A stretch of DNA of 39,603 bases from the NCBI GenBank assembly GCA_004431415.1, contig QPMI01000366.1, positions 1 through 39,603 on the forward strand. The letters run 5' to 3'. The notes under the pieces are model-generated. The model had not been told where the DNA came from. It ran no database searches and saw nothing but the letters and a program-made list of their open reading frames with translations. Shown piece by piece: positions 8,319-39,200 of the stretch. Source of the DNA: Cyanophora paradoxa CCMP329 (Eukaryota; Plantae; Glaucophyta). Numbering within the stretch: position 1 is the first letter of the stretch; each line of letters opens with the position of its first letter. The position numbers and the translations under genes were made by a program.

Positions 8319-10159
8319 ATGACTGTCCACGAGGAGGAGATCTTCCTGTTCACTTCGGAGTCCGTCAACGAGGGCCACCCCGGTGCGCTCGCGCGCAAGC
8401 ACGCGGCCTCTAGCGCCCAACTGACTCCGTCGCCCGGGCAGACAAGCTTTGCGATCAGGTGTCGGATGCTGTCCTCGATGCCTGCCTGAAGGAGGACCCC
8501 GCCTCGAAGGTCGCTTGCGGTGTGTCGCGATTGCGGGTTGCGGCCAAGATTCCCGCGCTCATCGGGACTCGGCGCTCCGCGCAGAGACCTGCACCAAGAC
8601 CGGCATGGTTATGGTGTTCGGCGAGATCACCACGAAGGCGAAGGTGAACTACGAGCAGGTCGTTCGCGACACCCTCAAGCACATTGGCTACGATGACGCC
8701 AAGAAGGGTGCGCCGCCGCGGGCTAGTAGTTGAATTGGTTGCGCCTCGTTCTAGAAAAGAGCATTCGTTCGCTCTTCCAGCCCCGGGCTGCGGGGATTTG
8801 GCTCGCCGAGTGCTGACAGTCGTTTCGCCCAGGCATTGACTACAAGGACTGCAACGTCGTCGTTCACATCGAGGAGCAGAGCCCCGATATCGCACAGGGC
8901 GTGCACATCAACAAGGCTGACCTCGAGGTCGGCGCCGGCGACCAGGTGCCATTGCCGGCTTCGCTTCTTGCGTTTCTTCGGCTCACGCTGGGGCGTGCGC
9001 GTGCAGGGCCACATGTTCGGCTACGCTTCGGATGAGACCCCGGAGCTCATGCCCCTCACCCACACCCTGGCCACCCAGCTCGGCTACCGCCTCACTGAGG
9101 CCCGCAAGAACGGCGAGTGCCCGTGGCTCCGCCCGGACGGCAAGACGCAGGTTCGCCATCATTCAGCCGATTCGCACTCTTCGCGCGAGCGCGCAGGCTC
9201 GACCCTCGGCTCACGCGGAACGCGCAGGTCACCGTCGAGTACAAGCGCGTCGGCGGCAAGCTGACTCCCCTCCGCGTCCACACCATCCTCATCTCCACCC
9301 AGCACTCTGAGGAGGTCACCAACGAGGTCATCCGCAAGGTCCGTCGGCCGCCGGCCTGGCCCGACCGCGCCGCCGCGCCGCCGTCCCCGACGCCGCGGCG
9401 CGCAGGAGCTGATGGAGAAGATCATCAAGCCCGTCGTGCCCGCGAAGTACCTCGACGACAAGACCATCTACCACCTGAACCCCTCCGGCCGGTTAGCCCG
9501 CCCGCCCACTCGCGCTCGCGGTGCGAGTGCGGCGCGCCTGACCGTCGGCCGGCCGCGCAGCTTCGTCATTGGTGGCCCGCACGGTGACGCCGGCCTCACC
9601 GGCCGCAAGATCATCATCGACACCTACGGCGGCTGGGGCGCGCACGGCGGTGGCGCCTTCTCGGGCAAGGACCCGACCAAGGTCGACCGCTCGGCCGCCT
9701 ACGCCGCCCGCTGGGTCGCCAAGTCCCTCGTCGCCGCTGGCCTCGCCCACCGCCTCATCGCCCAGGTCCGCCTCGCACGCGCGCGCCTCGCGCTCAGCCG
9801 GCCGGCCGGCCGACCCCTCGCGGCAGGTCTCGTACGCCATCGGTGTCGCGGAGCCGCTCTCCGTCTACGTCGACTCGTACGGCACCTCGAAGCTGACCAA
9901 CGCCGAGCTCCTCGAGATCGTCAAGGCCAACTTCAACCTCAAGCCCGGCTACATCGCCCGCGACCTTGACCTCCTCAAGTGCGCCGTGCCCCCGCGCCCC
10001 GCTCCTCCTTCCTTTTCATCCCTTTCTTACGGCGCGTGCAGGCCGCGGTACCTCAAGACGGCCGCGTACGGCCACTTCGGGCGCGACGACGGCGACTTCA
10101 CCTGGGAGAAGCCCAAGCAGCTCACCATCCCCGAGCACCTCAAGGCCAAGGTCAAGTAG
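8319..10159 (+). CDS. MAT: S-adenosylmethionine synthetase (methionine adenosyltransferase, canonical MAT), 10 exons
   Basis: Motifs [68 protein letters not shown] and [13 protein letters not shown] introns at 8383-8441, 8520-8584, 8708-8832, 8946-9006, 9151-9227, 9339-9405, 9492-9560, 9766-9826 and 9979-10041 give one open frame. Confidence 0.98.
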
Positions 10160-14577: not shown

Positions 14578-15839
14578 ATGCATATGCTCGTTGCCTTCAG
14601 CTTGATCTGCCTGCTATTCGCGAACGTGGACATGGCCAACGCGCAAGTATCAGCAACAATATCAGCCGCAATTGCTACCTCCACGGCACCCACAGCGACC
14701 ACAACGAGTGCAACGTTTGCGTGGACATTTACGTTTGCAAGGACACAGGGAACCGGAACTCCTCCGACGATTACTGTGACCTCACCAAAAGGCACCTGCG
14801 CCCATCCGTACGGCGTGACAGCGACCCAGACACACGTGACAGGCAGCGCTACTACAAATACAGGCTCATGGACGTCTTCTGCCCTCGCATACAGCTCCTT
14901 TCCGGAAACGGGTACTGCCCAGCAGCTCTCCTGCGCCGTGACCTTCACCGCTTCATGCTCAACGTGCACAACTACTGGTACTTTCACTTGCACTAACTGC
15001 GTTGCGGGTTCTTGTACGCTTTCAACGACTACTCCAATTACGCTTACGAACTGCGTGAGTAACACATTAACCCTCTCAACAACTCTCACTGCAGGTGGTC
15101 TCTTTATTTGGCTTTTGAAAAGCACGTGAGTTATCTAACGAGCCCTGCAGTGAAAACAATCACAGCGATTGGTTCGCCAACGGTTACGACTGCGAGCACT
15201 ACCAGCGTCAACGTTGGATCGGTGACCGTCACGCAATCATCTACCCCGACAACGCTGTACACGAACGCATTCCAATCTGTAACATGCACAAGCAACTCCA
15301 TTTCAGTGATTGTCGGCCCGACCGCGCTTGCCAGCACGGCAACCACAACTGCGGCTGTCAATGGCGCATCGTCGGCTTTGTGGGCCACTTCATCGTACCC
15401 CGTCAGCTGCAGGGTCACCGTCACCTACTCATACAATGGTACGATCACCAGCTCTGCAGTTTCAACCACTGGTGAGCGCCTTTAAATTTGCACGTCAGTT
15501 CATAAATGCATGTTGCAGTTGCCGCAATTCCTCACCGTCGCAATTGCTCCAGTTCCTTTCAAGACCGCATCGTCCTTGACATTCGGGACGCTCTTGGCCG
15601 CATCGACCACTTCAGTAACAGTCCCGTTCAGCTGGACGCTCTCGACGGGGTACGCGGCTTCCCCAACGTACGGCAGCTTGACTGTTACTTGCTCGGGATC
15701 CCCCGGAAGTGGCGTCGAGGTCACGAAGACAGGGAGCACGGTTCTTTCAGCCGGAGCCAGCAGCGCCTCTTTGGATGTGACTGGGTTTCCGGAATTGAGC
15801 TCACCCTACACAATATCGTGCTCCTCAGCACACATATGA
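14578..15839 (+). pseudogene. Secreted Thr/Ser-rich beta-strand-repeat surface protein, interrupted by the viral insertion
   Basis: Signal peptide MHMLVAFSLICLLFANVDMANA-Q. Introns 15095-15150 and 15472-15552 keep the frame. Three roughly 100-aa units end in similar motifs (FPETGTAQQLSCAVT / SSYPVSCRVT / FPELSSPYTISCS). The third is cut at ~15828 and reads into a stop inside the viral hairpin. Confidence 0.7.
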
Positions 15840-15903
15840 ATATTCATATTTTAATCCCTCGGCGTTCCGCCTCAGGATTAAAATATGAATATTCATATGT
15901 GTG
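15829..15903. repeat. Terminal hairpin: perfect 29-bp inverted repeat with a 17-nt loop
   Basis: CACACATATGAATATTCATATTTTAATCC (15829-15857) is the exact reverse complement of 15875-15903. Each arm contains the 16-bp palindrome ATATGAATATTCATAT. Confidence 0.95.
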
Positions 15904-16290
15904 ATTCGATGTTATATCAATAAAATCGATTAATTTATTTGAATTTTCACATGAATTTTCATATTTTTAAATGCATTTTCAATTAATTTAATCGATTTTA
16001 TATCGATAAACTCGATTAATCGATATTGTATCTTAATTGTAGTTAATCGGAATTATATCTATAACTTCGATTAATCTTAATTGAATCCTAAATGAATCTA
16101 ATCGGAATTATATCAATAAATTCGATTAAATCATGTTCTTTTCCTATTAAATCAATTAAATATTTAACTTTGTTACCATAAGTGGTCTAAGTTGACTCAC
16201 TTTTCATAAACATTTTGAACTCTTAGTCTCCTTGAATTTCTTAAGATGACTCAACTTAGTCAACTTAGTCAACTTTGTTACCATAATCAA

Positions 16291-17060
16291 TCAGGGTGGA
16301 CTCACTTTTAGATCAACTTTGAAATTTCAAGCAAAATCAACTTATATTTCAAAAGTGGATCTTCTAAGTGGACTCATAATGTTCACTTTGTGATACATTT
16401 AAGTTCTTATGCTTACTGTATATGGTCAGGGTTGACTAAGTGGGGGGAGTTGACACATTTTTCAAAATCTTTTATAGAATATTCTTTGGATCTCAAAATT
16501 TCCTCTGAAATTTGAGTCAACTCAACCCACTTAGTCAACCTTAGCATTGAAATGGTCACATTTTTATATACATTTACTCCTTTTACGATTAATATGAATC
16601 AACCATGAGTCCACTTAGTATTAAATATTAATCAATGTAAATATAAACAAGGGGATTAAGAGGAATGCTTATTGAATATGGTCAGGGTGGACTCACTTTT
16701 TCATACAAATCGAATTCCCAAGTAAATTTGACTCTAAATTGTTAGGTGGATCTTCTAAGTGGACTCAAAATGTTCACTTTGTGATACTTGTTAGCTCAAA
16801 TCCTTACTGTTTATGGTCAGGGTTGACTAAGTGGGGGGAGTTGACACATTTTTTCAAATCCTTTTTAGAAAACTTTAGGTCCCAAATATTTCCTGTGAAA
16901 TTTGAGTCAACTCAACCCACTTAGTCAACCCTTGCATTGAATTCGTAACAAAATCCATATACTATTACTACTTTTACGATTAATATGAGTCAACCTTGAG
17001 TCCACTTAAATATAAATATAATATAATAGGGGGAATCTAGGGGAGATGCTTACTAAATGC
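16291..17060. repeat. Two imperfect ~390-bp tandem direct repeats, each with an internal inverted repeat
   Basis: GGTTGACTAAGTGGGGGGAGTTGACACATTTT at 16430 and 16821. TTTGAGTCAACTCAACCCACTTAGTCAACC ends at 16540 and 16930. Motif blocks are conserved and spacers diverged. Confidence 0.9.
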
Positions 17061-17591
17061 AGTGTTAGATTGATGATTTCACATATGTAATCACGATTAT
17101 CTCTAAAGTAGATTTGGGTTGATTATTCGATGTTATCAGGTGATTGAGTTGATAAGTATTTGATGTAGATCTTTAACTCTTTCGTTATAATCGAATTTAA
17201 TCGAATTAGTTTTGAATTTTCAAAATCGGTTTAATCGTAATAGCGATGTATACACATCGAGATTCGTAGATGTGATTGCAATTTATTGTTATGTATGATA
17301 TTGGTGATTATATTGAATCGTTGGTGTATCGATTTGATAACTTCCTGGTGATCTGTATTAAAAACTCACGTTTAATGGATTTTAATCGAATTTAAAATCA
17401 AAATTCAAAATCGGTTTCATCGCGATTTGGAGTCACAGGTATCGAAAATCCTAGATGTGATAGTAGCGCTGTGACCGCCTTAAAATGCTCGATTTTATGA
17501 CGTTTTAAGCGCATCGATTTGAGCATGTGGTGTTGAGATATCGTAGCAAACGTGAATAGTGAGTTTCTAGACGGGTACAGCATTAATCTAG

Positions 17592-17942: not shown

Positions 17943-19328
17943 CTAGCTAGTTTTGGTCCTTTCTCTTAGTGTTCTCTGAGGTTTAGGGGCTGTATATGAC
18001 TCCTTAGTAGTCTGAAAGTCATTATACCATCTCTGGCTATTAACCTCAGAAAGTTTCTGTGTCCCTGCTATAGTGAGCTTTTTGAGTTCCCTATTAACCT
18101 TGCCAGTCTTCTCCTTTCTAGCCTCTATCAAAGGCTTATCTGGGACTTCATTAGCAGCTTCTATGCCTTCTCTCCTTATAGCAGCATCAACCTTGGCTTC
18201 CTCTTTGGCTTGCTCTAATGCATCCACTGTAGGGGTTTCTAGATATTCAACTGAATTCACAGGCAACAGCTCATGGAAAGCAAACCTGTTATCTATGATC
18301 TCACCAGTGGGACTCCTTAGCTTAAACTTAAAGCCTTCCCTACTATCAACAGTGTAAACTATCCTAGACCAATTGTTACCCTGTTTGGCAAAGGGGTTCT
18401 TCTCAACTTTCACTCTAACAAACATGCCAGGCTGCATGGTATCAAGGTAAGCTATTGATTTCTTGAATCTTTCATCTTCTAATCCCACTATATACCTATA
18501 ATGCTCCTCTGTAGTTTCGCCTGGCTTCATCTTAGTAGCTGAGTGGACTGTATTATTGTAATTATACTCAATATCACCTAACACATCAAAGAATCTAGCT
18601 GTGTTATTAGCTATGCAGTAGTTTGTGATCAGTCTCTTAATCTGCTTGTTAAAGGCTTCAATTCGACCTTGGCTTCTATGGTCAGCAGTTCCACTCACTT
18701 GGTGTTCTATGAATTTACTAGATAAATACTCCTGGAATATTCGATTTTGGAACTCACTCCCAGCATCTGATTGAACTTTTACTATGGGTCTTGCCACTCT
18801 CATTTCAAGCTGCTTAAATGCAGCCAATGTAGTGAGAGCTGATTTATCTCTTATAGGTATAATATACCCAGTTCTCAGTGTTGATTCCATTGCAGTCATA
18901 AATGTATCATAGCCATTGTTTTGTTTCTTATAAGCTGGGAAAAAGAGCAAATCAATCACATAGGTATCAAGGGGTTGCCTAATTGGGACCATGGGATCTC
19001 TCTTTCTAGATATAGCAGGTGCATTGATCTGAACAACTTCTTGTTTTTTATAGAACTCTTGCAACTGCTTATAGGATTCATCTGGTAACTCAGCCCTCAT
19101 AGCTTGAAGCCCTTTATAACCAGTTCTCACATCATAGAATCTCTTGGCAATCTTGCTGGTTTCTTTCACTGCAATAGCAACTGGGATCTCTACTGGGACA
19201 AGCTCTTTCATCTCTGACTTTTTTACAATTCGAGATTCCCCCTTTTCCTCCTTTGGAATTGTGATGGGCAGTAGGTTACCTTGCAGTTGCTCAGTGGTTC
19301 TCCTAACTATTCTTCCAGTTGCTGGCAT
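17943..19328 (-). CDS. Retrovirus-like (rve, DDE) integrase of Polinton type
   Basis: DDE triad in VIDLL...VQSDAGSEF...QGRIEAFNK. YNNTVHSATKMKP and G.FVRVK..K.PFAK..NWS motifs are typical of Polinton integrases. Intact 461-aa ORF. Confidence 0.95.
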   Translation of the reverse strand: MPATGRIVRRTTEQLQGNLLPITIPKEEKGESRIVKKSEMKELVPVEIPVAIAVKETSKIAKRFYDVRTGYKGLQAMRAELPDESYKQLQEFYKKQEVVQINAPAISRKRDPMVPIRQPLDTYVIDLLFFPAYKKQNNGYDTFMTAMESTLRTGYIIPIRDKSALTTLAAFKQLEMRVARPIVKVQSDAGSEFQNRIFQEYLSSKFIEHQVSGTADHRSQGRIEAFNKQIKRLITNYCIANNTARFFDVLGDIEYNYNNTVHSATKMKPGETTEEHYRYIVGLEDERFKKSIAYLDTMQPGMFVRVKVEKNPFAKQGNNWSRIVYTVDSREGFKFKLRSPTGEIIDNRFAFHELLPVNSVEYLETPTVDALEQAKEEAKVDAAIRREGIEAANEVPDKPLIEARKEKTGKVNRELKKLTIAGTQKLSEVNSQRWYNDFQTTKESYTAPKPQRTLRERTKTS

Positions 19329-19331
19329 CTC

Positions 19332-22300
19332 TTAATTAAAAGGAACAGAATTAATACCATCTGGTAAGATGTATCTCTTTGCATCAAAGCAGTTCAGGGC
19401 AACCCTTCTACTCACAGTGTCTATTATTGTGTGATCTGCCCTTCTCTTCTGCTTGGCAGTCACAGTCTTGCTTATACCTGCAAATAAACACTGCTTAAAA
19501 TCATTAAATTGGAGTTCCTCAGTTGAAGTCCCAGAGAGCATACTTCTCTCAATCTCAGCAGTTCTGAAACTGTAAACTTTGGCTCTCAGACCCACATATT
19601 CCAATATAGCAGAACCTGGCATCTCATTTTTGTATTTACCTGGGGTCATTCTGTTGGATCCCCCTAGATCCAGATTAAAGGATATATTCTCTAGATCCTT
19701 TTGGAGGGTCTTAGATTCGATATATAGACAAAAGGAATCAGTATCATGGAACAGTAATTTGGCTTTGGACCATTGGGACCTTACAGTATCATAGAAGAAC
19801 TGGTAATTATGCAGTTTGGCTGCATCCAAAACATAAGCCCCAATTGCAACAGGCTTATCTAGTTTCACATGCTTTGTGTAAAACTCAAAGGCAACTGCTT
19901 TTTCGTTTATGGGACTTGTTGATTTCACCAATGGGGAAGCTGCATATTTCATAAACAGTTTCTCACTGTTTGCAATCTTAACCACAGATCTACCTCTGCA
20001 AGATTCAATGCATTTCCCATAGATTGAGTTATTCATGAGTTTATAGAAATCAGCCTCGAATTTATTCACTGCTTTCCTTCTCATCTCAGTATTCAGCTCA
20101 ATGTAGGGTTTCATTACAGGAGCCACAGTAAATGAGAGGACCCTGTGAATTTTCTTTAATTTCACACCTTTGTCCAACAGATATTGCAGAAGAGGCTCAG
20201 AAATCACATAGTTTGCCACAGAACCAAAGGTTGCAGTTAGCTTTGGGGTTTTATCAAGCTCTTCTCCTGAAAGATCTAAAAGGCTCTTTTGATATTGTGA
20301 TAATTCGGCATAATCTATTATTTTCTTGTTAATGATTAGGGGGAAATCACTGTGATCTAGAAACAGCCTAATTGGGTAATCCAGATCAACTTCCAGGAAA
20401 CTGGATCTGTTATCTTGTGGGTTGAATTCGGTCTCCCATCTAAAATCACCAACTGGGATTGGCTGACTCAAACAGTAGCCATACAAGTTGTTAGCATCAA
20501 ACAGCATAATGTGGGAGTTTTCACCATCAGCCTCAGCATACCTACAAGGCATTGTTGCAAAGCCACCCCTGATTCCCCTCTCAACAAATTCATATTGCTC
20601 TACATCACTTATAAGCTCTATTTTTGCCTTGGTGGTCCTAAGCATAGCATCCCAAGATAACCCAGGTGCAGATACATAATGAACTGGGTCAAGTCCATAT
20701 ACTGAGTGTGAAAGCCTTCTGAAGGCTTGGAATTTGTCCATTAACTCATCTACATCAGCAGCTCCAAAGTCCATGAAATTACTTGCATCAATGAACTTGT
20801 AAAGTCCCCATTGCAATGAAAGGTATTGATCAAAGTTTTTTGAAAGGATTTCGATTCGCTTTTTATCCCCTAAACCTGCTATTTTTCTGAAAATGAATGT
20901 CCCACAGTCATCCATTTGGTCAACAACCACTGCAACTTTGGTTTGCTTTGAGATTCTCCTATGCAGATTGCAGTTTCTGCATGCAGGAGCAATGTAATGA
21001 CCTGTGTGGTGGTCATGATCTCTGCATTTGAAGTTCTCCTTGGTGAACCTCTCACTGCAAAGGTAACAGTGTTTAGTAGCCCTGTAAACAGCCTTTTGCT
21101 CATCTGTGAGTTCATTCATGGGAATATTGGTAAACAGAAAATCGATCAGCTCTCTTGCTTTGGACTCCAAGCATTCAAAGAGACCTCCCATTGGATCCTG
21201 CCCCTCAAATCGAAAATCTTGAACATCTTCCCCAGTGACTACTCTAAGGTTCACTGCTGAGACTTCCCTCTTAGATTTTGATGCATCAATGGGGATGCTT
21301 CTATGTTCAATCTTGCAGTAAACCACAACAGGAAGCCAAACAGTTTTCCTGAGGTTTTTCAGTCCAAACTCTATGGTGGTCTCAGGTTTTGGTGTGATTC
21401 CCTTTGAGAGTCTCCAATCAATGCATCTATTTGAGTCCACATGAGCAGTGAGTTTAGCCTCAGACCTGAATCGAGATAAGCATGTGTCACAGTAGTGTAA
21501 CTTCTGATCATTGTATGTTTCATGGTTTACTTTCAATAATCTTGAAAGGGACATGATTGTAATATAATGACCATTCCCTTCATCATCAAATATCAGCATG
21601 AGATTAACCTTATGCTTTCTGCCTGGGTTACTGGATTGATGCAGGGGATAAATAACCTCTCCATCGATTCCAAATATATTAATGCTAATGCCTGCATTTT
21701 GAGCCTCGAATTTATCAATAATCTCAGCATCACAGGCAACAGGGAATGGGATGTTATCGAAATTCAGAGCCAGCGGATTATAAGCGATTGCTGAGTATTT
21801 CCATTTGCGATATTGTGAAAGCTCATTCCTCTTATGGGAGTTTATCGCTTTTCTGTGAATATATGCCAAAATTGCATTTTCGAAGCAGGAATCATCAATA
21901 TTTCGAATATTCACTGTGGCTCTCTTCCTAGCAATCCACTCTGGGGTTTGTAGAAAGCATCCACCAGTTGGAGCATAACTCATAATAGCCACTCTGAGTA
22001 TTTCAATTCTTTCTAAGCGATAGCTATCAACCACATTCATCTGCTCCTGGCATATTTGGGCTGCTTTATTCAGCTCAGTTCGAATATTTCTCGATCTGGT
22101 TAGTACAAAATAATCGCTGTAAATGTATTTCGATATCCAAACCTGCGGATTGCTTACTTTTACGAACTTGCAGATAAAAGACAAGCGAACCTTGATTGCC
22201 CTGAATTGATCTAAACCCTGCTTTAATCGATTAGGAAGGGATGTAGCAATTCTGTCCAGGAATTCAATCACATCTACAACAACTTCCCTTCTGGCTCTGT

Positions 22301-22577
22301 AAGTGAGCCAGCGATATAATTCATTCATGGCTGTTCCATCTTCTGCCTCAGGTTCTATTTGCCTTAGGCGATCCAGTTCATCCAAGGTTTCAATTTTATC
22401 ATATAGGTTATTTGCTTTTCTGGTTAATCTGGCTAAAGTGGGTCTACCCTTTGCAATTAAATCTATTTCCCGGTCATATTCAGCCTCTGTTATTTCATGG
22501 GCTGCATAAAGTGTTCCCAGCAATCCCATGAGTTCCCATTTCTTCTCCCTTATGAGTTTGTTGGTAATTCGGGGCAT
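19332..22577 (-). CDS. Protein-primed family B DNA polymerase with putative terminal-protein region, vOTU-like protease, C2H2 finger and endonuclease VII-like insert
   Basis: Polymerase motifs FDANNLYG, KLMNNSIYGK, HDTDS and GLRAKVY. NIDDSCF...GHY is the vOTU-like Cys/His pair. CYLC..RDHDHHTGHYIAPACRNCN is EndoVII-like. Intact 1081-aa ORF. Confidence 0.96.
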   Translation of the reverse strand: MPRITNKLIREKKWELMGLLGTLYAAHEITEAEYDREIDLIAKGRPTLARLTRKANNLYDKIETLDELDRLRQIEPEAEDGTAMNELYRWLTYRARREVVVDVIEFLDRIATSLPNRLKQGLDQFRAIKVRLSFICKFVKVSNPQVWISKYIYSDYFVLTRSRNIRTELNKAAQICQEQMNVVDSYRLERIEILRVAIMSYAPTGGCFLQTPEWIARKRATVNIRNIDDSCFENAILAYIHRKAINSHKRNELSQYRKWKYSAIAYNPLALNFDNIPFPVACDAEIIDKFEAQNAGISINIFGIDGEVIYPLHQSSNPGRKHKVNLMLIFDDEGNGHYITIMSLSRLLKVNHETYNDQKLHYCDTCLSRFRSEAKLTAHVDSNRCIDWRLSKGITPKPETTIEFGLKNLRKTVWLPVVVYCKIEHRSIPIDASKSKREVSAVNLRVVTGEDVQDFRFEGQDPMGGLFECLESKARELIDFLFTNIPMNELTDEQKAVYRATKHCYLCSERFTKENFKCRDHDHHTGHYIAPACRNCNLHRRISKQTKVAVVVDQMDDCGTFIFRKIAGLGDKKRIEILSKNFDQYLSLQWGLYKFIDASNFMDFGAADVDELMDKFQAFRRLSHSVYGLDPVHYVSAPGLSWDAMLRTTKAKIELISDVEQYEFVERGIRGGFATMPCRYAEADGENSHIMLFDANNLYGYCLSQPIPVGDFRWETEFNPQDNRSSFLEVDLDYPIRLFLDHSDFPLIINKKIIDYAELSQYQKSLLDLSGEELDKTPKLTATFGSVANYVISEPLLQYLLDKGVKLKKIHRVLSFTVAPVMKPYIELNTEMRRKAVNKFEADFYKLMNNSIYGKCIESCRGRSVVKIANSEKLFMKYAASPLVKSTSPINEKAVAFEFYTKHVKLDKPVAIGAYVLDAAKLHNYQFFYDTVRSQWSKAKLLFHDTDSFCLYIESKTLQKDLENISFNLDLGGSNRMTPGKYKNEMPGSAILEYVGLRAKVYSFRTAEIERSMLSGTSTEELQFNDFKQCLFAGISKTVTAKQKRRADHTIIDTVSRRVALNCFDAKRYILPDGINSVPFN

Positions 22578-22635
22578 TATTCCTAACTTGTTCCTATTCT
22601 AAGGGGATATTTTATTTTAGAGCATTTTAAACGCA

Positions 22636-22820
22636 AGTGGACTAAGTGGGTGGAGTTGAGGCACTTTTTATTTCTTTTTAGGGCAGAGTCCTTTTTTAGA
22701 ATCTGTGAAAAAATGAGTCAACTCCCCCCACTTAGTCAACCTAATCGATAAATAAACCATAAATAAAAGACTGTTTGGGTCTTTTATGATAAATTTGAGT
22801 CAACCATGAGTCCACTTTTG
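22636..22820. promoter_or_regulatory. Third copy of the inverted GTKGACT motif cassette, upstream of pPolB
   Basis: GTGGACTAAGTGGGTGGAGTTGAG...GAGTCAACTCCCCCCACTTAGTCAACC...GAGTCAACCATGAGTCCACTT matches the cassettes at 16.4-17.0 kb. Function is inferred. Confidence 0.65.
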
Positions 22821-22827
22821 AGTAAAC

Positions 22828-25420
22828 CTAAACTTCAACATCAGAATCATAATCTGATGCATCAGGATCAGCAGCAGGTAGGTCCTGTTTCATCCTTGGA
22901 TTAGCTTCTTCCTCAATAGTCTCATCATCTACAAGCTTCATCTTTCTGAATTCCTCAAATACTTGTGGGAATAGGAAATGATAGTATTGTTTGCCATTTG
23001 TAGTTTTCACTTGGATATATGTAACACTTCTCATTTCAGTATAATATCGGCGACTATTATAATCGTTTTTATATTTATTGCTGGTAATAAACTCCTGGAA
23101 CCACTTCCAGGTTTCCACAAGGCTACCAGACTTGCATTTATTCTCGGAAATTAAGCCTCGATCCACAAGCCACTTAGTGAACATAAGAATGATTGGAGCG
23201 CACACCTGTTGGGCTAAATAGTATTTATTTGTAAGGGGTCTATCAGCAATCCAGTTCACATCCTCACAGTCAACTTTGGTTCTCAAATAGTGGGCAATGT
23301 TTCGAATATTGCAGTGATCATTTAGCCATTTTACAAGTGGAAGGAAGTATGACCTATCCTTTGCGAATTTCTTACTAACTTCAACAACCACAAATCGCCT
23401 ATCTCCAGCTTCAATTTTCACTGGAATGTTGTTATTGCTGGTGAATATAATCCTGGCAAAGTTGCTTTTTGTGTATGAATCTATCCCTTTGTGTTCAATT
23501 ACAATCTTATCAGAAGTTATGAGATCTTTGAGCATATCATTATTTTCGAATGTGTCCTTGCCTGAGGCTTCATTCACAACAATCAAGATCTTATCCTCTC
23601 TATTGTGGGCAAATCGACCAAACAGATCCTCTTTTGGCTTTCCAGTTGCATAACTTAGGGCATCTCCAAGTATCTTCTTTTGGAAAGTATCAACCAACAC
23701 ATTTTTACCAGTTCCCTGCTCACCAATGAAGATTAAGGATACTCCATTGAGTTCCCCAGGCTTTTGCAGCATGTGGGCAAACCATTTCAACAGATATTCA
23801 TAGGTATTTTGATCCTCACCAGACATTAAGAACAAGTGATCTAGGAAAGGCTTAATCATCTCAGCAGTTACATCCTCTGGAGCATTTTCGAATTGCTGAT
23901 GGTCGACCTTCATTCCTGGATAGAGATTAAATACAGACTTGCATTTTGCACTGAGAGTAGCAGGAGGGGGAAGGAAATCCATGTAAGTTGATCTTGTGGC
24001 TGTTGGATCCACAATCCATTTCCTAAATGATTGCTCCCATTTCTCTTTCTCATTATCTGTTCCCTCATTGACAATCACCTTATGCATCAAATGGGGAAAT
24101 GCTTTGTAGAGAGCTTCCCAATATCTTTGGGCATCCAGCAAAGTAGTTGTTCATCCCAGAGCATCACACAACCAACATTTTCAACATGATGCATTCGAGC
24201 ATTGAAATACCTCTTATGCACATTGTAATGTTCAGCCAAAGGAGGGATACTTGCAGTCTTGTAATCGATTTCATCTGTGTCCTCTGGTAGGAATGCATAC
24301 TTTTTGGGAAGAGTTCCTTGAAAAGCTCATTGTTATCTTTGCTCAACCAATAAACCAAGGATTTGAAGGTCAACACTTTGCCAGGCTCAGCCTTCTTCTT
24401 GCTTCTGCGAAGCTGTGTAAACTTTTCCTGGCATTCATCATAATCATACTTGTCACTCTGTTCTGAGAATTGGTGGAAGAGTTCAGCCTGCATTTTAGGG
24501 GTAAATTTGTTGTCTTCCCCAACATTGATGATGACCAGTCCAACATCAATCCAAGTCTTATACTCGCTGGCTCTTTCAGCATTGAGACCCATTATAACAC
24601 TTTGTAGCAGTTCGAAAGTAACAGGATTTTCGGGTTCAGTGTCTTTTTCAGCTTCTACCTTCTCAGTCTTCACTTTATCACTTTTTGGCTCCTTTTTAAC
24701 TGGTTTTGGCTCAGGAGTATAATTTGCAAATGCAGAAATATTTGATTCATCCACAAGTTTAGTAGTAGCTGAGAAGTAAGATACAAAGAAGTCCTCATTT
24801 CGCATTAACACTTTGTCACAGTCAACGAATTTCTTAAAGCAAACGTTTTTATCAACATCTTTCTTTGATTTATTTTGAGCATCCAGAGTCTCACCTTTGC
24901 AGCAATTGAGGCAGATAAGGTTCTGTGTGGAGCTGTAAACTCCACTGTCATAATCCTCATTTTTCACCAATCCCATAGCTTTGAAAAGCTTGGGGATATC
25001 TTCATGTTTGCAAGCAAGTGTTTTAATGATAAAGTGGGCTGAGATCTTGAACTTGGTGACATCCTCCTTGATCAAATAAACCCTTCTATGGCGAACTGCA
25101 ACAGCAATATCGTTAATAGAAGTGGTACCAGATCGCTTCCATAGCTTATCTCTCATCTCTCTTACAACAGTTTCCGCCTCAGCATAGTTATCAGCAATGT
25201 TCTCCTTCAAATCAGCGAATTTATCCAGGTCCAGGTAAACTCTGGTCACTTGCTCAGGTTGAATGCATTCAGCCCAGGTCTTAACCTTGCTATTATCAAT
25301 GGCTTCAAGGGCATCTTCGGCAGAATCAAATACATGGGTGACCTTGTTGCGATCACCAATGAGAGTACTAAGGAATGTAGCATTTTCAACAGGGGTGGCG
25401 AATTTCTCGATTTTGTTCAT
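22828..25420 (-). CDS. AEP-type primase + PriCT-2 + superfamily 3 helicase (D5-like); two homopolymer frameshifts at ~24303 and ~24093
   Basis: AEP motifs VYLDLD, KISAHF and DSGVY. PriCT-2 segment YKTWIDVG..FHQFSEQSDKYD. SF3 motifs GEQGTGKN, VVNEA and IIFTSNN. A bridging frame KYAFLPEDTDE...KHFP links the two ORFs. Confidence 0.88.
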
Positions 25421-27412: not shown

Positions 27413-28193
27413 TTATAAACCGCGTTTATATCGCATCAATTTATTGCTATGGACTTGGCTTTTCACTTCTTTGGGGGCTTCCTCTTTCTCTGGTGGTTTC
27501 AGTTCATCTTCTTTCTTTTTTGGCTTCCTGTGGAAGCGAGGAAATGGGAAATCTTTCACAAGCTCAGCTTTATCTACATAGTATTTAACTGAGTAGTTTG
27601 CAGAGGACCAAATGATATACTGATAGGAGTGAACATACTCTTCAAACATCTTGTAGAAATCCTCTTTATTTCGCATTATATTGTATTCTTCCTCTATGGC
27701 TTCCAGTTCTTTGCGATTTGCAGCACTTAGAAACATTGCATAATCCGAATTTACTCGAATAGTCGAAGAGACTTTTCTTAGCTTTTGTGTGATGCAGATA
27801 ATGGATATTTTCGAATGGCGACCTCTGGAATACAGAGATCCGATTATTTTATCCCTTGTGAGATCGACTATCTCATTATCGATTAAATCATCTAAAACCA
27901 CACACAATTGGTTAACAGGTTCACCTTTCTCTATTTTCTCTTGCCTCTCATCTAGCAATTTAGCAATGTAAGGGCATCCCATTTTCCCAGTTGCAGTGTT
28001 GCCACTTTATCCCAGAAATGATTGAAGCTGGTTCCACTCACAACTAATACAACATCAATCTTTTGGCATCATGTAATTGCTTTAACCAATACTTTACAGC
28101 TTCTGATTTACCAGTTGCTGATTTTCCTATTGCCAATACACGAAATGGTGGTTCTATCATTTCACCAGCCACAAATTCATCCAAATCAGTCAT
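27413..28193 (-). CDS. A32/FtsK-like genome packaging ATPase (two homopolymer frameshifts)
   Basis: MTDLDEF..PPFRVLAIGKSATGKS (Walker A, upstream frame), VVLDDL (Walker B), RGRHSKISIICITQ and IRVNSDY. Confidence 0.92.
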
Positions 28194-28258
28194 TGTTGTA
28201 TATCTTTCTTAATAAAGACATATAAAAATAATGCAGGGAGACTGAAAATCGTAACAAT

Positions 28259-29628
28259 CTATAAATTAATTCTGCGTAAACCATCTTTGTCGACAATAAT
28301 AAAGCTATGCATGAGAGCGCGAACATTAACATCGATTACCTTATCTGAAGGCATGTAGAGGGTGAGGAATGAAGAGGAGGAATTTGTTAAATCAACATAA
28401 CCAGACTGGGCAATATTTCGAATCGCCTTTTCTCCATCAAGGCAGAAAGGCAATCCTGAAAGGACATAGCGATCAGCAACCTTATCCATGTTAGAGCATT
28501 TGAAGGCATCAGCAATTAGCTCAGCACCTTTGAGTAGGGAAATTGGCTCAGTGGCAAAAAGTCGCTGACCATTTATTTCAGTTGTAAATGTTATGTCTTT
28601 GGAGTTGGCATAGGTCTTAAGAACACTGTGGGAGCCATTGGATTTGTCAACAGTTGCATTATCACGAACTGAAACAAGCAGAGCATATACAAGACCTGAG
28701 ATTTGAGAGAGGTTAATTCGATTGGGTTGGGCATTGCCCTTAGCAGGGAAAGCAATAGCATCAACAAATCCAATATCAAGGGAGGGAATAGCCATGCCAG
28801 TAGTCTTAACTTTTTCAATTACAGTAGCGAAAAGCTCATCAGAAACATTAATAGCATGCATATAAAGGCGAGAGAAGTAATTGAAATTTCAGGAGTTGTT
28901 GCACCAAGAGTAAAGTCTGTGATGTTTTGACCAACATTTGCCAGAACAGTTTCAGCAGGGGCAGTTCCAAGACCATCATCTTTTGAATAATCTACATCAG
29001 CTGCTGCAACAGTAAGACCACGACCACCATAGGATGTTTCAACATAGCCTTTTCCAACATCCTTAAACCAAACAGTAACAACCATTTCACCAGATAAAGC
29101 ACCAAGGGGAAGGTAGTGATTTAGCCAAGGCACTGGAATTTCAACGAAAAATGAGCCACCAAGTCGGTTGGTTCCATGAGCAGGGATGCCATGAACCATG
29201 CCCATTGATCGTTTCTTTTTAGCTAGTTGATCCTCCGAATAATAGACCAGGGGGAAATGAGCAAGGAAATCAGATGGAATATGGTAGGTGTAAGATCCAT
29301 AGGTAATTTCAAGTCGCTGAACTAAAGCACCAACTGGGCGAGTGTATCCATTGCGAACTAGATCAGTATCACCAGCAAAAGTGATAGCTGGAAGGTCAAA
29401 AGCAAGTTCGAGTTTTCCACAGAAATTGTAGCGAGGTAGCTTGAAGGAAATGCGATTTCCTACATTATTTGTGAAAGTATTACTAGGATTCACAACAACT
29501 AGAACTGGCTTAGACTTGGATTCGAGACCAAGCATAAGGGAGTTATCCAGGAAAAAGGCTTTCGCCTCCTCTGGGGTTGTTAGGGCTTCTTTCAGCGAAA
29601 GTCTTTGAAGAGTGGAAGTGATATCCAT
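28259..29628 (-). CDS. Double jelly-roll major capsid protein (one frameshift at ~28870)
   Basis: About 455 aa when joined. ISFKLPR..KLELAFDLP, LVQRLEITYG, FFVEIPVPW..YLPLGAL..MVVTVWF and GYVDLT are DJR-MCP-like. Located between the ATPase and a penton. Confidence 0.82.
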
Positions 29629-31653: not shown

Positions 31654-33195
31654 AGGCACCTGTGAAATCAACTCTCATTGTGGGAGCATTCACATACACA
31701 AGGGATAAATGCGAATATATTTGATTCTGAGAGAGAAACCTATGTAAAAAGCATCCTTGATGCTGAGAGGAAATCCACTCAATAGAGCCACATCACCAGA
31801 GTTGTGAGCATTGTTAATGTTCTCACAGACATATATTTTGTTTTGCCCATCTGATCGAATAAAAGACCAGTTGATCCCATCAGTGGATGTTGCCACATTG
31901 AAAGTCTTAATAAAAGCATTTGTTTCCCCTGATCCATAGGCAATCACAGATGAGAGTTCAAAAGTATATGGAAAAGCAACTTGAAGGTATTCAGTGGGAG
32001 TTTCCCATATTTGTTCAGGAGCATAGGCTCCAGCTTCCCAGCCAAATGCTGAAGGTCTTGCCATGAAAGGCTCTTTACCTGTCACAGAGGATGAGGCAGT
32101 AAAGGCATCATCTGCAAGCTGATACCAATTAGCATCTAAAGGAGGTGACTCTGTGAGAGTGGATGAGATGTAAGCCTTTGTAGGGTTCTTTAGTTCATAG
32201 TTTGCTACTAGAAGACTGCAAAGCTTATTAATCATATCATTGTTTGCTGCTATGTATGTTTCAGTGAATGCTAGCATATCTGGGATCTTAGATGTGTCAT
32301 CCAGAGAGCTTACAATGTGATTTGGAAGAGGGACTGATAGCCTATAGTATCTTCCATAATCCTGATCATAGTTGTAGGGTAACAACTCCTCCATCTTATC
32401 AAGGGCAGAAAGCTCACTTGCAGCCATGAGCATGTTAATCAATGGGCTTCCATCTGTTGAGGCAATCCATGAGAGAATTCCCCAGCTGTTCACAGTCTCA
32501 TAAGCATAACCCACATAATCAGACTCTAAATGTGGTCCACCTCACCACAAGAGATGCTTATTACTATAATATCATCATCATCACTGTAAATCTTCTTTGC
32601 ATGGCTGTAACCACACACACTGGGATTATTGTTTCCCGAAATGGCACCATCAATGAGACAGACAAATACCCCTGATTGAAATCAACAATGCTTACAGGAG
32701 AGAAATATGTAGGAGCAGCAGAAGTAGCCCTAGCAGCAATCTTACAAGGCAGAAAGCTGTAATTGTTATCATTTGTGATAAATATTGGTTTCATATTCTG
32801 AGTATCAAAGGATGTAATCACAATGTCCTTTAAGGAATCCTGTATTAGTGATTCACCAGTAACTGAATTGATTGCAGTCTCCAAGGGTCCCACATCATAT
32901 TTTGTATTAAAAAGGGCATTTTCGATGATATTTCGAGGATTTGCGAAAATCAAGGGCAGTTGAGTTAGGTAAATATTGTGTAAATCGTTTGCTGTCAGTT
33001 TAGGTTCACCTGGTTTATCAGGATGCCTTATATTCAAACCTATTGCAATGATCCCACCAGTGGAAGTTCCACTCACAAGATCCACAAGATCGATTATTCT
33101 CCTGCCAGTTCGATTTTCGATTTCTTTGAGCAGCCTGGTTATGATAATGCCCTTGCACCTCCCCCTGACAAACTGAGAACTACTTTGAGAGGCAT
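31643..33195 (-). CDS. Patatin-like phospholipase fused to a C-terminal discoidin (F5/8 type C) domain; several frameshifts
   Basis: Patatin motifs LSLSGGGARG, GTSTG, ARATSAAPTYF and LIDGA. Discoidin motifs FTASS, YLQVAF, TSTDGINW and KYIRIYP. Confidence 0.85.
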
Positions 33196-33238
33196 CTTTT
33201 ACTTATCAGGAATTTTATAAATCCATATAGTAAAAGCC

Positions 33239-36200: not shown

Positions 36201-39200
36201 GATACTGTAATAGATTACCTTACAGTTACAAGCAATGCAAATTTACCACATCATCCAACCTCTAATGTGGTTCAAGGTTGGATTCAAAATCACACTCACA
36301 CAAAAGCCCAGATTACAGATTTGCCCATACTCACACAAAAGACCAAATAACAGATTTTGCCCATACTCACACAAAAGACCAAATAACAGATTTCGCCCAT
36401 ACTCACACAAAAGACCAAATAACAGATTTCGCCCATACTCACACAAAAGACCAAATAACAGATTTCGCCCATACTCACACAAAAGACCAAATAACAGATT
36501 TCGCCCATACTCACACAAAAGACCAAATAACAGATTTCGCACATACTCACACCAAAGATCAGATCACAGATTTTGCCCATACTCACACCAAAGATCAGAT
36601 CACAGATTTCGCCCATACTCATTTATGGGAGCATATCACAAATCCTCCATTAACCTTCCCACCTGATTCACACACTCATGATTACTCAACAATAACCAAT
36701 AGCAACCACAGACACCCTTGGAGTCAAATAGATGAACAACCAACTTTTGCATCATCAGGCAATATTTTGACAGACTTTACAAATGGTGTGAGTCTCTACC
36801 AGAGTAATACCATACCTGAAAGGCTACAACTAAATGATTATTATGTCAATCGAAAAGGCATTGATGCAGGGACCACAATGGAAGGTGAATTATACATCAA
36901 ACAACCAACAAGAATCCAAATGATTTCAGCAGGTGGTGTTGGGGTGATTGATACCAAACCAGGCATCTTCTTAACAAGTTATTATAATGAGGACATCCAT
37001 TGACATCAGGATTACCACCTCTCCCATCTGATCCAGCAGCATATGATGACAAGGATGCCATTATGCAAGTAAATGTAACAGATGTCAGTGCAACTGATGG
37101 CTCCAGACCTAAAATAATATTCAGTCGATCCAAATTCAATTATGTCCCACTTGCGGGACAACCATCAGATAACTATGGGAAATGCGAAATGTCCTGGATT
37201 AAAACATTAGCAGGAGGAGCCTTAGAAGTCAATCAGAGGATGGCAGCAAAAAACTTACACAATGAGACCCTCTCTGGTGTTGTTACAGATGATTATTTAG
37301 AAAACAAAGATTATGTAACAAATACAGAATTACAATTAGCTCTTACAGATGTTGTAACAGATACCGAATTAACAGCAGCTCTTGGGAATTATTTACCTCT
37401 TACAGGTGGAACTGTAACAGGAACTGTGAATGCTACCACTTTACAAATTGGTGGAACCACAATACCAAAAGGTTACGATTTCGACCAATTAGATGTGGTT
37501 TCGACAGATAGAAGCGCAAATAATTGGAACTTAGGATGGACACCAAGAACCGGACAAACAGGATGTTATACAACACCACAAAATGATGAAGATTGTAGCG
37601 CTTGTTGGATGAGGTGGAATGTCCCCACAGGAATGAAAACGTTTTATATTCAAACCATGTGTTGGTCTAATTGTAGATATTTTGACATCTATGGTCAAAC
37701 AGCTAATGGTAATCAACATTTCCTTCGGCGTTTAAATGTTTATCAAGGTATTCAAGCATCAGTACATGATGGAACACAATCCAGTATACTTTTCATCTCT
37801 ATTAACTGTGAGTTTTACACAAAAATATATGTTCAAGGTCGAAAAGGTAGAATCCATCTTACAGGTGTTTTGGTGGAGTAGACAGAGAGCAACAGATAAT
37901 GAATTGGGCTGATCTCTTGGGATAATATATTTAGAACCATCATTTTACTCAGCCGCAGACCTTCCACAAACCGCAACATGGGCAACAATACATGGTTAAA
38001 ATCAGTAGATGCAGTCGAGCGAATTTGGTTTGGTAATGGCGATCACATATATTCGAGGGAGAAAATGGTGATGGTGTCTCAATTGAATTTAGAAACTCAG
38101 CGAATGCAGCAATCTTAAAATCATATGGTAATGGTAACTTTTGGGTGAATAACACTATTACAGCACCCACTATTAATGCTACTACCAAACTCCAAATAAA
38201 CGGTAATGATGTCCCAAAGTTTCACACAGCAGATAAAACAGTAGGAGGTATTGCATTTAATAGATGTTCTGAGGGTTGGACATGGGCATGGAGTACAGCA
38301 TGGGATCCATATTATAATTATGGTTCATATGTCCATAATAATCAATCTGATGACGAAACTTCTACCGCTTGGATTGACTTCGATATACCCGATGGATACC
38401 ACAGGAACAGCATTTTTAACTATTTACCTTGGACTAACTCACGACTTTTTGAAATTTGGGGAGTTAATAGACAAGGGAATGAAGTTTTTATTACATCAGT
38501 GAATAGTTATCAACCATACGCCACATGCCTGATGGTAACCACAGTGGTTTAAATAATGTTCCAATACATCTTGGAAATAGATTCCTCACTATTCGGATTA
38601 GACCAAAGATTGGAAGAGTTCATATTATGGGTATTAGTTACATGAAAATTTGGGTAGGAAATAGTTATGGTGGTCACACCGGCTATATTCATTGGAATAA
38701 CGTTTATAGTAAACCAAATATCTTAACAGGATGTGGGGACTTGGTTTAGTTCAAGTGATGGATATAATCGTATCCATTTCGGTAACCAAACTTCTACATA
38801 TTTGAAAGGAGGGGGAGATATTCCCCTTGTATTCCGAAATGAACAAGATACTGATATTTGTTACATGTATCATGGAGGATGGATGTGGATTGGAGGTTAT
38901 TTAACACAAGGAAGTGACATAAGATACAAAACCGATATTAAAAAGATATCCGGCGCTCTTTCAGCAATAGAGAAATTAGAGGGAGTGAGTTTTTAAACGA
39001 ATTGGAAGTGAAAAAGATGGAGTTAAATTAGGTTTAATTGCACAAGATGTTCAAAAGGTAATACCAGAGGTAGTTAATGTTAAAAAAGACGATGGCTACC
39101 TATCTCTTGAATACCAGGTTTAATTCCAGTTCTCATTGAAGCTGTGAAGGAGTTGTCCCAAAAATGCAAAGATCTACAGGATCAAATAGACCAAATTAAA

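What the first reader, a model, noticed from the sequence alone, without database searches (positions are those of the whole stretch)
20740..21330. pPolB with an apparently dead, partly deleted proofreading exonuclease
The polymerase motifs and the ORF are intact. However, ExoI (usually YADFE) reads YCKIE, and ExoII (HN..GYD) reads DQMDDCG. The long segment that normally separates FIDS..FM from ExoIII Y...DV (containing KG.FPY) is reduced to FIDASNFMDFGAADV. Inference: a mutator polymerase, or one specialised for priming or end synthesis while other enzymes do bulk replication.
Basis: partly seen in the sequence, partly recalled or inferred. Interest (0 to 1): 0.75.

Follow-up and report, generated by a model that had tools for sequence, protein, structure and literature searches.

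The report
Proofreading-dead Polinton polymerase beside a helicase
A multi-copy DNA virus integrated in a eukaryotic genome encodes a conserved DNA polymerase whose error-correcting site is mutated and partly deleted, as in a distant relative, and it likely copies DNA without proofreading behind the neighbouring helicase, repeating in a new polymerase lineage a loss already known from mavirus.

Summary
Confirmed and lineage-wide. The 1081-aa pPolB (19332-22577, minus strand) of this Polinton-like element has Lys at the ExoI Asp, no ExoII Asp, and lacks about 95 residues carrying the KGxYPY motif and the ExoIII Tyr (spacer 33 aa against a median of 127; 5 of 374 homologues are under 70). ExoI Glu424 and possibly ExoIII Asp608 remain. 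A 47%-identical relative has the same deletion and none of the four carboxylates. Sister copies in public DNA runs bridge the junction without gaps, and their variants are mostly synonymous (31 of 38 over the gene; 29 of 40 in the exonuclease remnant), so this is not decay. Polymerase motifs and the vOTU dyad are intact; the model matches phi29 polymerase (Z 20.5). A primase-like/SF3 helicase gene and iteron block lie directly upstream; no such helicase was found in 28 long homologous loci. A second exonuclease-dead pair branches elsewhere, but one origin is not rejected. Likely mechanism: a non-proofreading polymerase that leaves unwinding to the helicase. Exonuclease loss with helicase gain is published for mavirus and Tlr1-type enzymes; I found no report for this clade. 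'Mutator' is a plausible consequence, not shown.

The parts
19332..22577 (-). pPolB ORF, 1081 aa: helical leader, TP-like domain, vOTU, zinc finger, degenerate exonuclease with EndoVII-like insertion, polymerase
   Evidence: PF03175, PF02945; phi29 Pol Z 20.5, rmsd 3.4, 486 aligned
21306..21320 (-). ExoI remnant YCKIE: catalytic Asp replaced by Lys422, Glu424 kept
20964..21101 (-). EndoVII-like zinc-binding insertion (residues 493-538), Cys/His kept (8 of 10 conserved columns)
20901..20921 (-). ExoII remnant DQMDDCG: His, Asn, Tyr and catalytic Asp columns lost, one-residue gap
20751..20795 (-). Deletion junction FIDASNFMDFGAADV: about 95 aa missing, including the KGxYPY motif and the ExoIII Tyr; Asp608 may be the ExoIII Asp
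   Evidence: bridged without gaps by sister copies
19530..20573 (-). Polymerase motifs IRGG, A (D694), B (K846), C (D945, D947), KxY (K1000) intact; the lysine before the thumb-region Gly is Ser1015
21543..21965 (-). vOTU-like protease domain, Cys231 and His337 present
   Evidence: (12 of 14 conserved columns); domain name from PMC11161782 section 8, assigned by position and motif
21969..22325 (-). TP-like (D1) four-stranded alpha/beta domain; the usual Gly-Ser-Gly-Trp loop reads Asp-Ser-Tyr
   Evidence: D1 description in PMC11161782 section 6; assignment inferred
22828..24150 (-). SF3 (D5-like) helicase part of a primase-helicase gene
   Evidence: DUF5906 E 1e-21; phage DNA primase families
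24164..25420 (-). Primase-like and PriCT-2 part; separated from the helicase part by two frame changes in this copy
   Evidence: PriCT_2 E 5e-10; fused relative P0394: AEP_C962R, PriCT_2, DUF5906. No AEP profile hit for this ORF itself
22625..22829 (.). Mirror-image repeat block between helicase stop and pPolB start, candidate origin
   Evidence: function inferred
16161..17019 (.). Two to three further copies of the same repeat block near the element's left end
15829..15903 (.). 75-nt hairpin palindrome at the left end of the low-GC element
   Evidence: (z -12.3; 0 of 200 shuffles)
17943..19328 (-). rve-type integrase directly downstream of pPolB
27413..27982 (-). A32-like packaging ATPase, C-terminal part

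Best explanation
This is a conserved protein-primed-type family B polymerase of a Polinton-like virus whose 3'-5' exonuclease site is mutated and partly deleted across its lineage, and it likely works as a non-proofreading elongating enzyme that depends on the adjacent SF3 primase-helicase to open the template. Shown: loss of the ExoI and ExoII Asp, the auxiliary Lys and the ExoIII Tyr; the shared deletion; intact polymerase motifs; an excess of synonymous variation; the helicase and repeat block next door. Inferred: (1) no exonuclease activity; (2) polymerase activity; (3) weakened strand displacement, because phi29 exonuclease metal-ligand mutants lose it; (4) the helicase loads at the repeat blocks and unwinds, which would have made the exonuclease site dispensable; (5) the remaining beta-sheet core and zinc insertion are kept as a scaffold for the template tunnel; (6) a raised error rate follows as a by-product.
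For: Motif loss and deletion (4 of 31 conserved ExoII-ExoIII columns kept against a mean of 28.9 in 317 intact proteins). P0002, 47% identical over the full length, has the same 33-aa spacer and no carboxylates. Contigs from runs X2, X13, X15 and X20 with 7-11 differences bridge the junction with no gaps; no joint or indel is listed in 20660-21400. Variants: 31 of 38 synonymous across the gene and 29 of 40 in the remnant, against 21% of sites. Motifs A, B, C intact; fold matches phi29 Pol. Helicase adjacent, none detected in 28 homologous loci of 9 kb or more, 24 of them with all four carboxylates. Precedent: mavirus pPolB plus S3H (PMC11161782). phi29: exonuclease metal-ligand mutants lose strand displacement (PMC6351526).
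Against: No activity was measured. The helicase link rests on one exonuclease-dead locus; neighbours of P0002, P0177 and P0196 could not be seen, and the 28 comparison loci are partial. None of 46 loci with a related helicase carries this polymerase type, so that helicase normally works without it. The primase-helicase is frame-broken in this copy and was not checked in sister copies. The polymerase domain has also drifted (24 of 37 conserved palm-C columns against a mean of 33.9), which could mean a reduced role. Glu424 and perhaps Asp608 remain. Hairpin ends and the changed TP loop fit poorly with ordinary protein priming. Two listed variants read as stops when scored singly. The model is weak over part of the palm-thumb region (pLDDT under 50 at 967-1019).
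Confidence: 0.58

Rival explanations
1. The polymerase is an accessory enzyme for priming, end completion or gap filling at integration, while the primase-helicase with host polymerases copies the bulk of the genome.
For: Related helicases occur without this polymerase in 46 of 46 loci, several of them virophage-like. Hairpin end; palindromic ends go preferentially with non-pPolB replication genes in Halocafeteria elements (10.64898/2026.07.28.741278, passages). Polymerase domain among the most divergent. The gene abuts the integrase.
Against: Motif A-B spacing 152 (median 161) and B-C spacing 99 (median 100), so TPR1 and TPR2 are kept; fingers, palm and thumb are complete. The local primase part has no AEP profile hit.
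Confidence: 0.22
2. Loss of proofreading is adaptive: the virus family is a selected mutator.
For: Long stems (0.59 and 0.51 changes per column); ranks 2, 7, 8, 9 of 204 for divergence; P0177/P0196 faster than their sisters in 30 of 36 non-independent tests; very diverse sister copies.
Against: Only 9 of 48 tests significant for P0001/P0002. Protein divergence cannot separate mutation rate from changed constraint; P0177 and P0196 have biased composition. No comparison with an exonuclease-intact family in the same host.
Confidence: 0.1
3. The gene is a redundant passenger in the middle of being replaced by the primase-helicase, and the exonuclease damage is early decay.
For: Such two-replicase genomes are read as transient states in 10.64898/2026.07.28.741278. 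Other genes in this copy are frame-broken.
Against: The same deletion in a 47%-identical protein implies great age; pN/pS about 0.06 over the gene and 0.10 in the remnant; catalytic polymerase residues intact.
Confidence: 0.05
4. A rewired or residual exonuclease site is formed by Glu424, Asp556/557 and Asp608.
For: These acidic residues lie at or beside the three Exo motifs.
Against: The ExoI Asp is Lys; the auxiliary Lys and ExoIII Tyr, which set up the site in phi29 (PMC4974454), are deleted; P0002 has none of these acidic residues.
Confidence: 0.05

Closest known systems
Mavirus pPolB (TP-vOTU-palm, exonuclease remnant) with separate S3H; PMC11161782
   Same: Exonuclease function lost, TP and vOTU kept, SF3 helicase encoded separately, rve integrase present.
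   Different: Different pPolB clade (mavirus pPolB is only rank 35 in the viral fold search, 10% identity). Here most of the exonuclease fold and its zinc insertion remain under selection; the protein is 1081 aa against 617.
Tlr1-like pPolB-S1H fusions of PLVs and transpovirons; PMC5499653, PMC11161782
   Same: Exonuclease lost, helicase gained.
   Different: There the domain is missing altogether, motif 4 is missing, and an SF1 helicase is fused; here polymerase motifs are canonical and an SF3 helicase is a separate gene.
EndoVII-containing Polinton pPolBs ('group 2', label recalled; relatives in adintovirus, MELD virus and bidnavirus-like entries)
   Same: Domain order, vOTU dyad, zinc finger, EndoVII-like insertion, polymerase motifs; 30-37% identity.
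   Different: 326 of 335 keep four acidic Exo residues; no helicase was found in their loci here.
Bacillus phage phi29 DNA polymerase (PDB 2pyj)
   Same: Fold of residues 413-1062, Z 20.5.
   Different: phi29 proofreads and strand-displaces alone; its TP is a separate protein.

Membership tests
[quoted passage not shown] | Motifs A, B, C and KxY with catalytic Asp residues | tested here: met
   D694, K846, D945, D947, K1000
[quoted passage not shown] | phi29-like fold with TPR1 and TPR2 insertions | tested here: met
   Z 20.5 to phi29, other family B at most 9.7; spacings 152 and 99 near the medians 161 and 100
[quoted passage not shown] | Terminal-protein-primed initiation | not testable with these tools
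   TP-like domain present with Ser185/Tyr186 but without the usual Gly; needs an assay
Proofreading DnaQ-like 3'-5' exonuclease | Four carboxylates in ExoI, ExoII, ExoIII | tested here: not met
   K422, E424, gap, D608 or gap; P0002 has 0 of 4
Proofreading DnaQ-like 3'-5' exonuclease | ExoIII Tyr and auxiliary Lys | tested here: not met
   Both lie in the deleted segment; equivalence to phi29 Tyr165/Lys143 inferred from motif order
EndoVII-containing Polinton pPolB clade ('group 2', recalled label) | TP-vOTU-zinc finger-Exo with EndoVII insertion-Pol order | tested here: met
EndoVII-containing Polinton pPolB clade ('group 2', recalled label) | Placement with named group-2 references in a tree that includes group 1 | not tested
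   Trees held only homologues found here
Polinton / Polinton-like virus | pPolB with rve integrase and A32-like ATPase | tested here: met
Polinton / Polinton-like virus | [quoted passage not shown] | tested here: inconclusive
   Candidate ORFs at 28259-29628 had no Pfam or PHROG hit and were not folded
Polinton / Polinton-like virus | Terminal inverted repeats and target duplication | not testable with these tools
   The right end lies outside the window and no genome is held
Mavirus-type exonuclease-less pPolB | Most of the exonuclease domain lost | tested here: not met
   About 190 residues of the domain and its insertion remain; it works like mavirus pPolB but is not a member
Tlr1-like pPolB-S1H | Fused SF1 helicase | tested here: not met
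   ORF ends after the thumb; the neighbouring helicase is SF3

The most novel reading that the evidence does not exclude
Proofreading has been discarded repeatedly and in the same way in this polymerase clade (ExoI Asp lost, the same subdomain cut out, the same thumb-region Lys lost), each time after a helicase took over strand displacement. This element would then be a preserved intermediate on the road to mavirus-type and Tlr1-type replicases, and a natural error-prone, helicase-coupled replisome of a multi-copy eukaryotic virus.
Probability: 0.3. Interest if true: 0.72.

Novelty: new variant of a known kind. Interest (0 to 1): 0.5.

Why it matters
PMC11161782 proposed from modelling that exonuclease loss and helicase gain compensate each other in this virus group, on two highly derived cases. 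This lineage is a further case in another polymerase clade, with exonuclease-intact relatives at 30-37% identity and most of the fold still in place, so the idea becomes testable with a matched pair of enzymes. The phi29 data suggest a different reason than fidelity compensation: the exonuclease site also supports strand displacement, which a helicase makes redundant. If the enzyme is error-prone, it would also help explain the diversity among integrated copies.

Tried and rejected
No whole genome is held, so sister copies were seen only as short public contigs. Private deletion or assembly error: rejected. Sequence searches of PDB gave no polymerase hit, so residue-level mapping onto phi29 was not obtained. 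A single-sequence fold of the exonuclease remnant was unusable (pLDDT 39). Searches for more exonuclease-dead members or their loci found none: shorter proteins (best 120 of 140 listed), metagenome scan (best 80 of 252 kept), viral scans. Independent origin of the two dead pairs: supported branches force two changes, but AU tests do not reject one clade (p 0.133; p 0.164). P0146 has a shorter deletion (spacer 66) and no lengthened branch; it is a single sponge gene model and may be a splicing artefact, so I left it out of the dead group. The 600-aa ORFs beside related helicases are phage PolA, not mavirus-like pPolB. The N-terminal match to Y-family little-finger domains (Z about 9) is more simply the TP-like domain. 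No RNA holder is listed on record, which says nothing on expression. The ESM Atlas did not hold the sequences. The substitution spectrum among copies was not interpreted, for lack of a control. Earlier findings held nothing on this exonuclease.

Full report
Setting. GC falls from 61-83% to about 40% near 15.8 kb and stays there to the window's end. The low-GC part begins with a 75-nt hairpin (15829-15903) and carries, on the minus strand, an rve integrase, the pPolB, an SF3 helicase, a PriCT-2-bearing ORF and an A32-like ATPase. This is a Polinton-like element integrated in an intron-rich eukaryote. Earlier unreviewed notes name the host as the alga Cyanophora paradoxa; I did not test that. 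No capsid gene was confirmed, and the right end is outside the window.

Observation. The pPolB is one open frame of 1081 codons. In a MAFFT alignment of 271 proteins over 800 aa, the ExoI Asp, ExoII Asp, KG lysine and ExoIII Tyr are present in 264-266 rows; here they are Lys, gap, gap, gap. After adding fragments and locus ORFs, 374 of 492 sequences span the FxDS and LDP anchors: median spacer 127, five under 70 (33, 33, 45, 51, 66), next 115. Of 335 sequences covering the whole domain, 326 have four acidic Exo residues. This copy keeps Glu424, and Asp608 aligns with the ExoIII Asp under the profile alignment only. Of 31 columns at least 80% conserved between ExoII and ExoIII it keeps 4, against a mean of 28.9 in 317 intact proteins; it keeps 12 of 14 in vOTU, 6 of 6 in the zinc finger, 8 of 10 in the EndoVII-like insertion, 33 of 41 around motif A and 24 of 37 around motif C. 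The damage is concentrated on the exonuclease site, with milder drift in the polymerase.

Not private. P0002 is 47% identical end to end, has the same 33-residue spacer and none of the four carboxylates. Fourteen runs hold at least half the sampled words of the region. I laid 6 of the 24 listed runs. Hundreds of short contigs per DNA run lay on the gene at 80-100% identity, as expected of many diverged copies. Contigs with 7-11 differences bridge the junction without gaps in X2, X13, X15 and X20 (the last labelled as another organism, depth 2.5); in 20660-21400 no indel or joint is listed and none of the 18 listed loose ends (of 19) lies between 20664 and 20900.

Selection. Of the 40 best-supported differences (197 not shown), 38 are in the ORF and 31 are synonymous; of 40 shown of 49 in the exonuclease remnant, 29 are synonymous; 21% of sites are synonymous, giving pN/pS near 0.06 and 0.10. 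The two lists share 11 positions, each change was scored alone, and two read as stops that I could not resolve. No listed variant restores an Exo residue. Met1013 is peculiar to this copy: the three DNA runs show Lys, as in P0002.

Structure. The AlphaFold model (11 sequences, pLDDT 75) matches phi29 polymerase over residues 413-1062 (Z 20.5, rmsd 3.4, 486 aligned), other family B enzymes at Z 9.7 or less. The remnant keeps its beta-sheet. Motif spacings across TPR1 and TPR2 are near normal. Residues 85-203 and 205-345 fit the TP (D1) and vOTU (D2) domains described in PMC11161782 sections 6 and 8; Cys231 and His337 are present.

Other dead relatives. P0177 and P0196 also lack the ExoI Asp and ExoIII Tyr and have spacers of 51 and 45. 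All four dead proteins lack a lysine that 310 of 317 intact ones have before the thumb-region Gly. On polymerase-domain trees P0001+P0002 form one pair (100/100) and P0177+P0196 sit with three intact proteins (100/99; likewise), but AU tests do not reject a single clade (p 0.133 and 0.164). So one or two origins. The four rank 2, 7, 8 and 9 of 204 for divergence; rate tests are significant in 30 of 36 comparisons for the second pair and 9 of 48 for this one, none independent.

The helicase. Directly upstream lies a primase-like/PriCT-2/SF3 helicase gene in three frames; relatives are single fused proteins, and the middle piece aligns only weakly to the linker. Whether the breaks are decay or sequencing error is unknown. 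Between helicase and pPolB is a mirror-image repeat block that recurs near the left end. In 28 fetched loci of 9 kb or more, 24 with all four carboxylates and 4 with fragmentary polymerases, no helicase or primase family hit appeared among 93 ORFs scanned (of 97 selected), and tblastn with the window's helicase and primase found nothing in 101 loci. These loci are partial. Conversely, none of 46 loci with a related helicase carries this polymerase type. The dead side of the comparison is this one locus.

Mechanism. phi29 polymerase uses four carboxylates, Tyr165 and Lys143 for exonucleolysis (PMC4974454, passages), and mutants of the metal ligands also lose strand displacement, which needs the exonuclease-TPR2 tunnel (PMC6351526, passages). 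A Polinton-derived pPolB from Entamoeba proofreads and strand-displaces (PMC3511435, passages). I therefore infer an enzyme that polymerises, cannot edit, unwinds poorly, and relies on the helicase; the scaffold would be kept for the template tunnel. How synthesis is primed (TP, hairpin or primase) is open. Whether the lost thumb-region Lys corresponds to phi29 Lys529 (PMC3762793, abstract and passages) was not established.

Known or new. PMC11161782 (sections 5, 6, 8 and passages) reports exonuclease loss in mavirus and Tlr1-like pPolBs and proposes compensation by helicases; PMC5499653, PMC12721341 and PMC13215967 (passages) repeat this. Searches found no report for the EndoVII-containing clade. 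10.64898/2026.10.13.758929 (section 12 and passages) maps stand-alone SF3 helicases on a pPolB tree in a figure I could not see, and its text has no occurrence of 'exonuclease'. PMC10120064 and 10.64898/2026.07.28.741278 (passages) do not mention the exonuclease. No supplements were read, and subscription papers are not searched. The label 'group 2' is recalled.

Verdict. Real, old, selected, and a new variant of a known kind. Exonuclease-dead about 0.93; helicase-coupled elongation about 0.58; interest 0.5.

Noticed in passing
window 15829-15903: 75-nt hairpin palindrome at the element's left end, unusual for a pPolB-encoding element; matches earlier notes on sister copies.
   Followed up: partly
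window 16161-17019 and 22625-22829: The same mirror-image repeat block lies after the helicase gene and two to three times near the left end; a second, different repeat type at 15886-16136 and 17188-17461.
   Followed up: partly
window 24090-24326, 27980-28260, 28819-28890: Frame breaks in the primase-helicase, the ATPase region and the candidate capsid gene, while pPolB and integrase are intact.
   Followed up: partly
window 32567-33202 (-): Patatin-like phospholipase domain (PF01734, E 2e-12) inside the element.
   Followed up: no
window 36248-36679: About twelve copies of a 36-nt tandem repeat in an open frame rich in His and Thr.
   Followed up: no
window 31690-32433 (-): F5/8 type C (discoidin-like) domain protein, possibly a virion fibre.
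   Followed up: no
   Followed up: no
L095:13596-15323 and L100:8167-9594: EndoVII-type pPolB in the same contig as Sputnik-type virophage capsid genes.
   Followed up: no
P0146: Sponge Polinton pPolB model with two internal deletions in the exonuclease domain; true loss or gene-model artefact.
   Followed up: partly
window 9412-9969 (+): Host S-adenosylmethionine synthetase gene fragment with short introns in the GC-rich flank.
   Followed up: no
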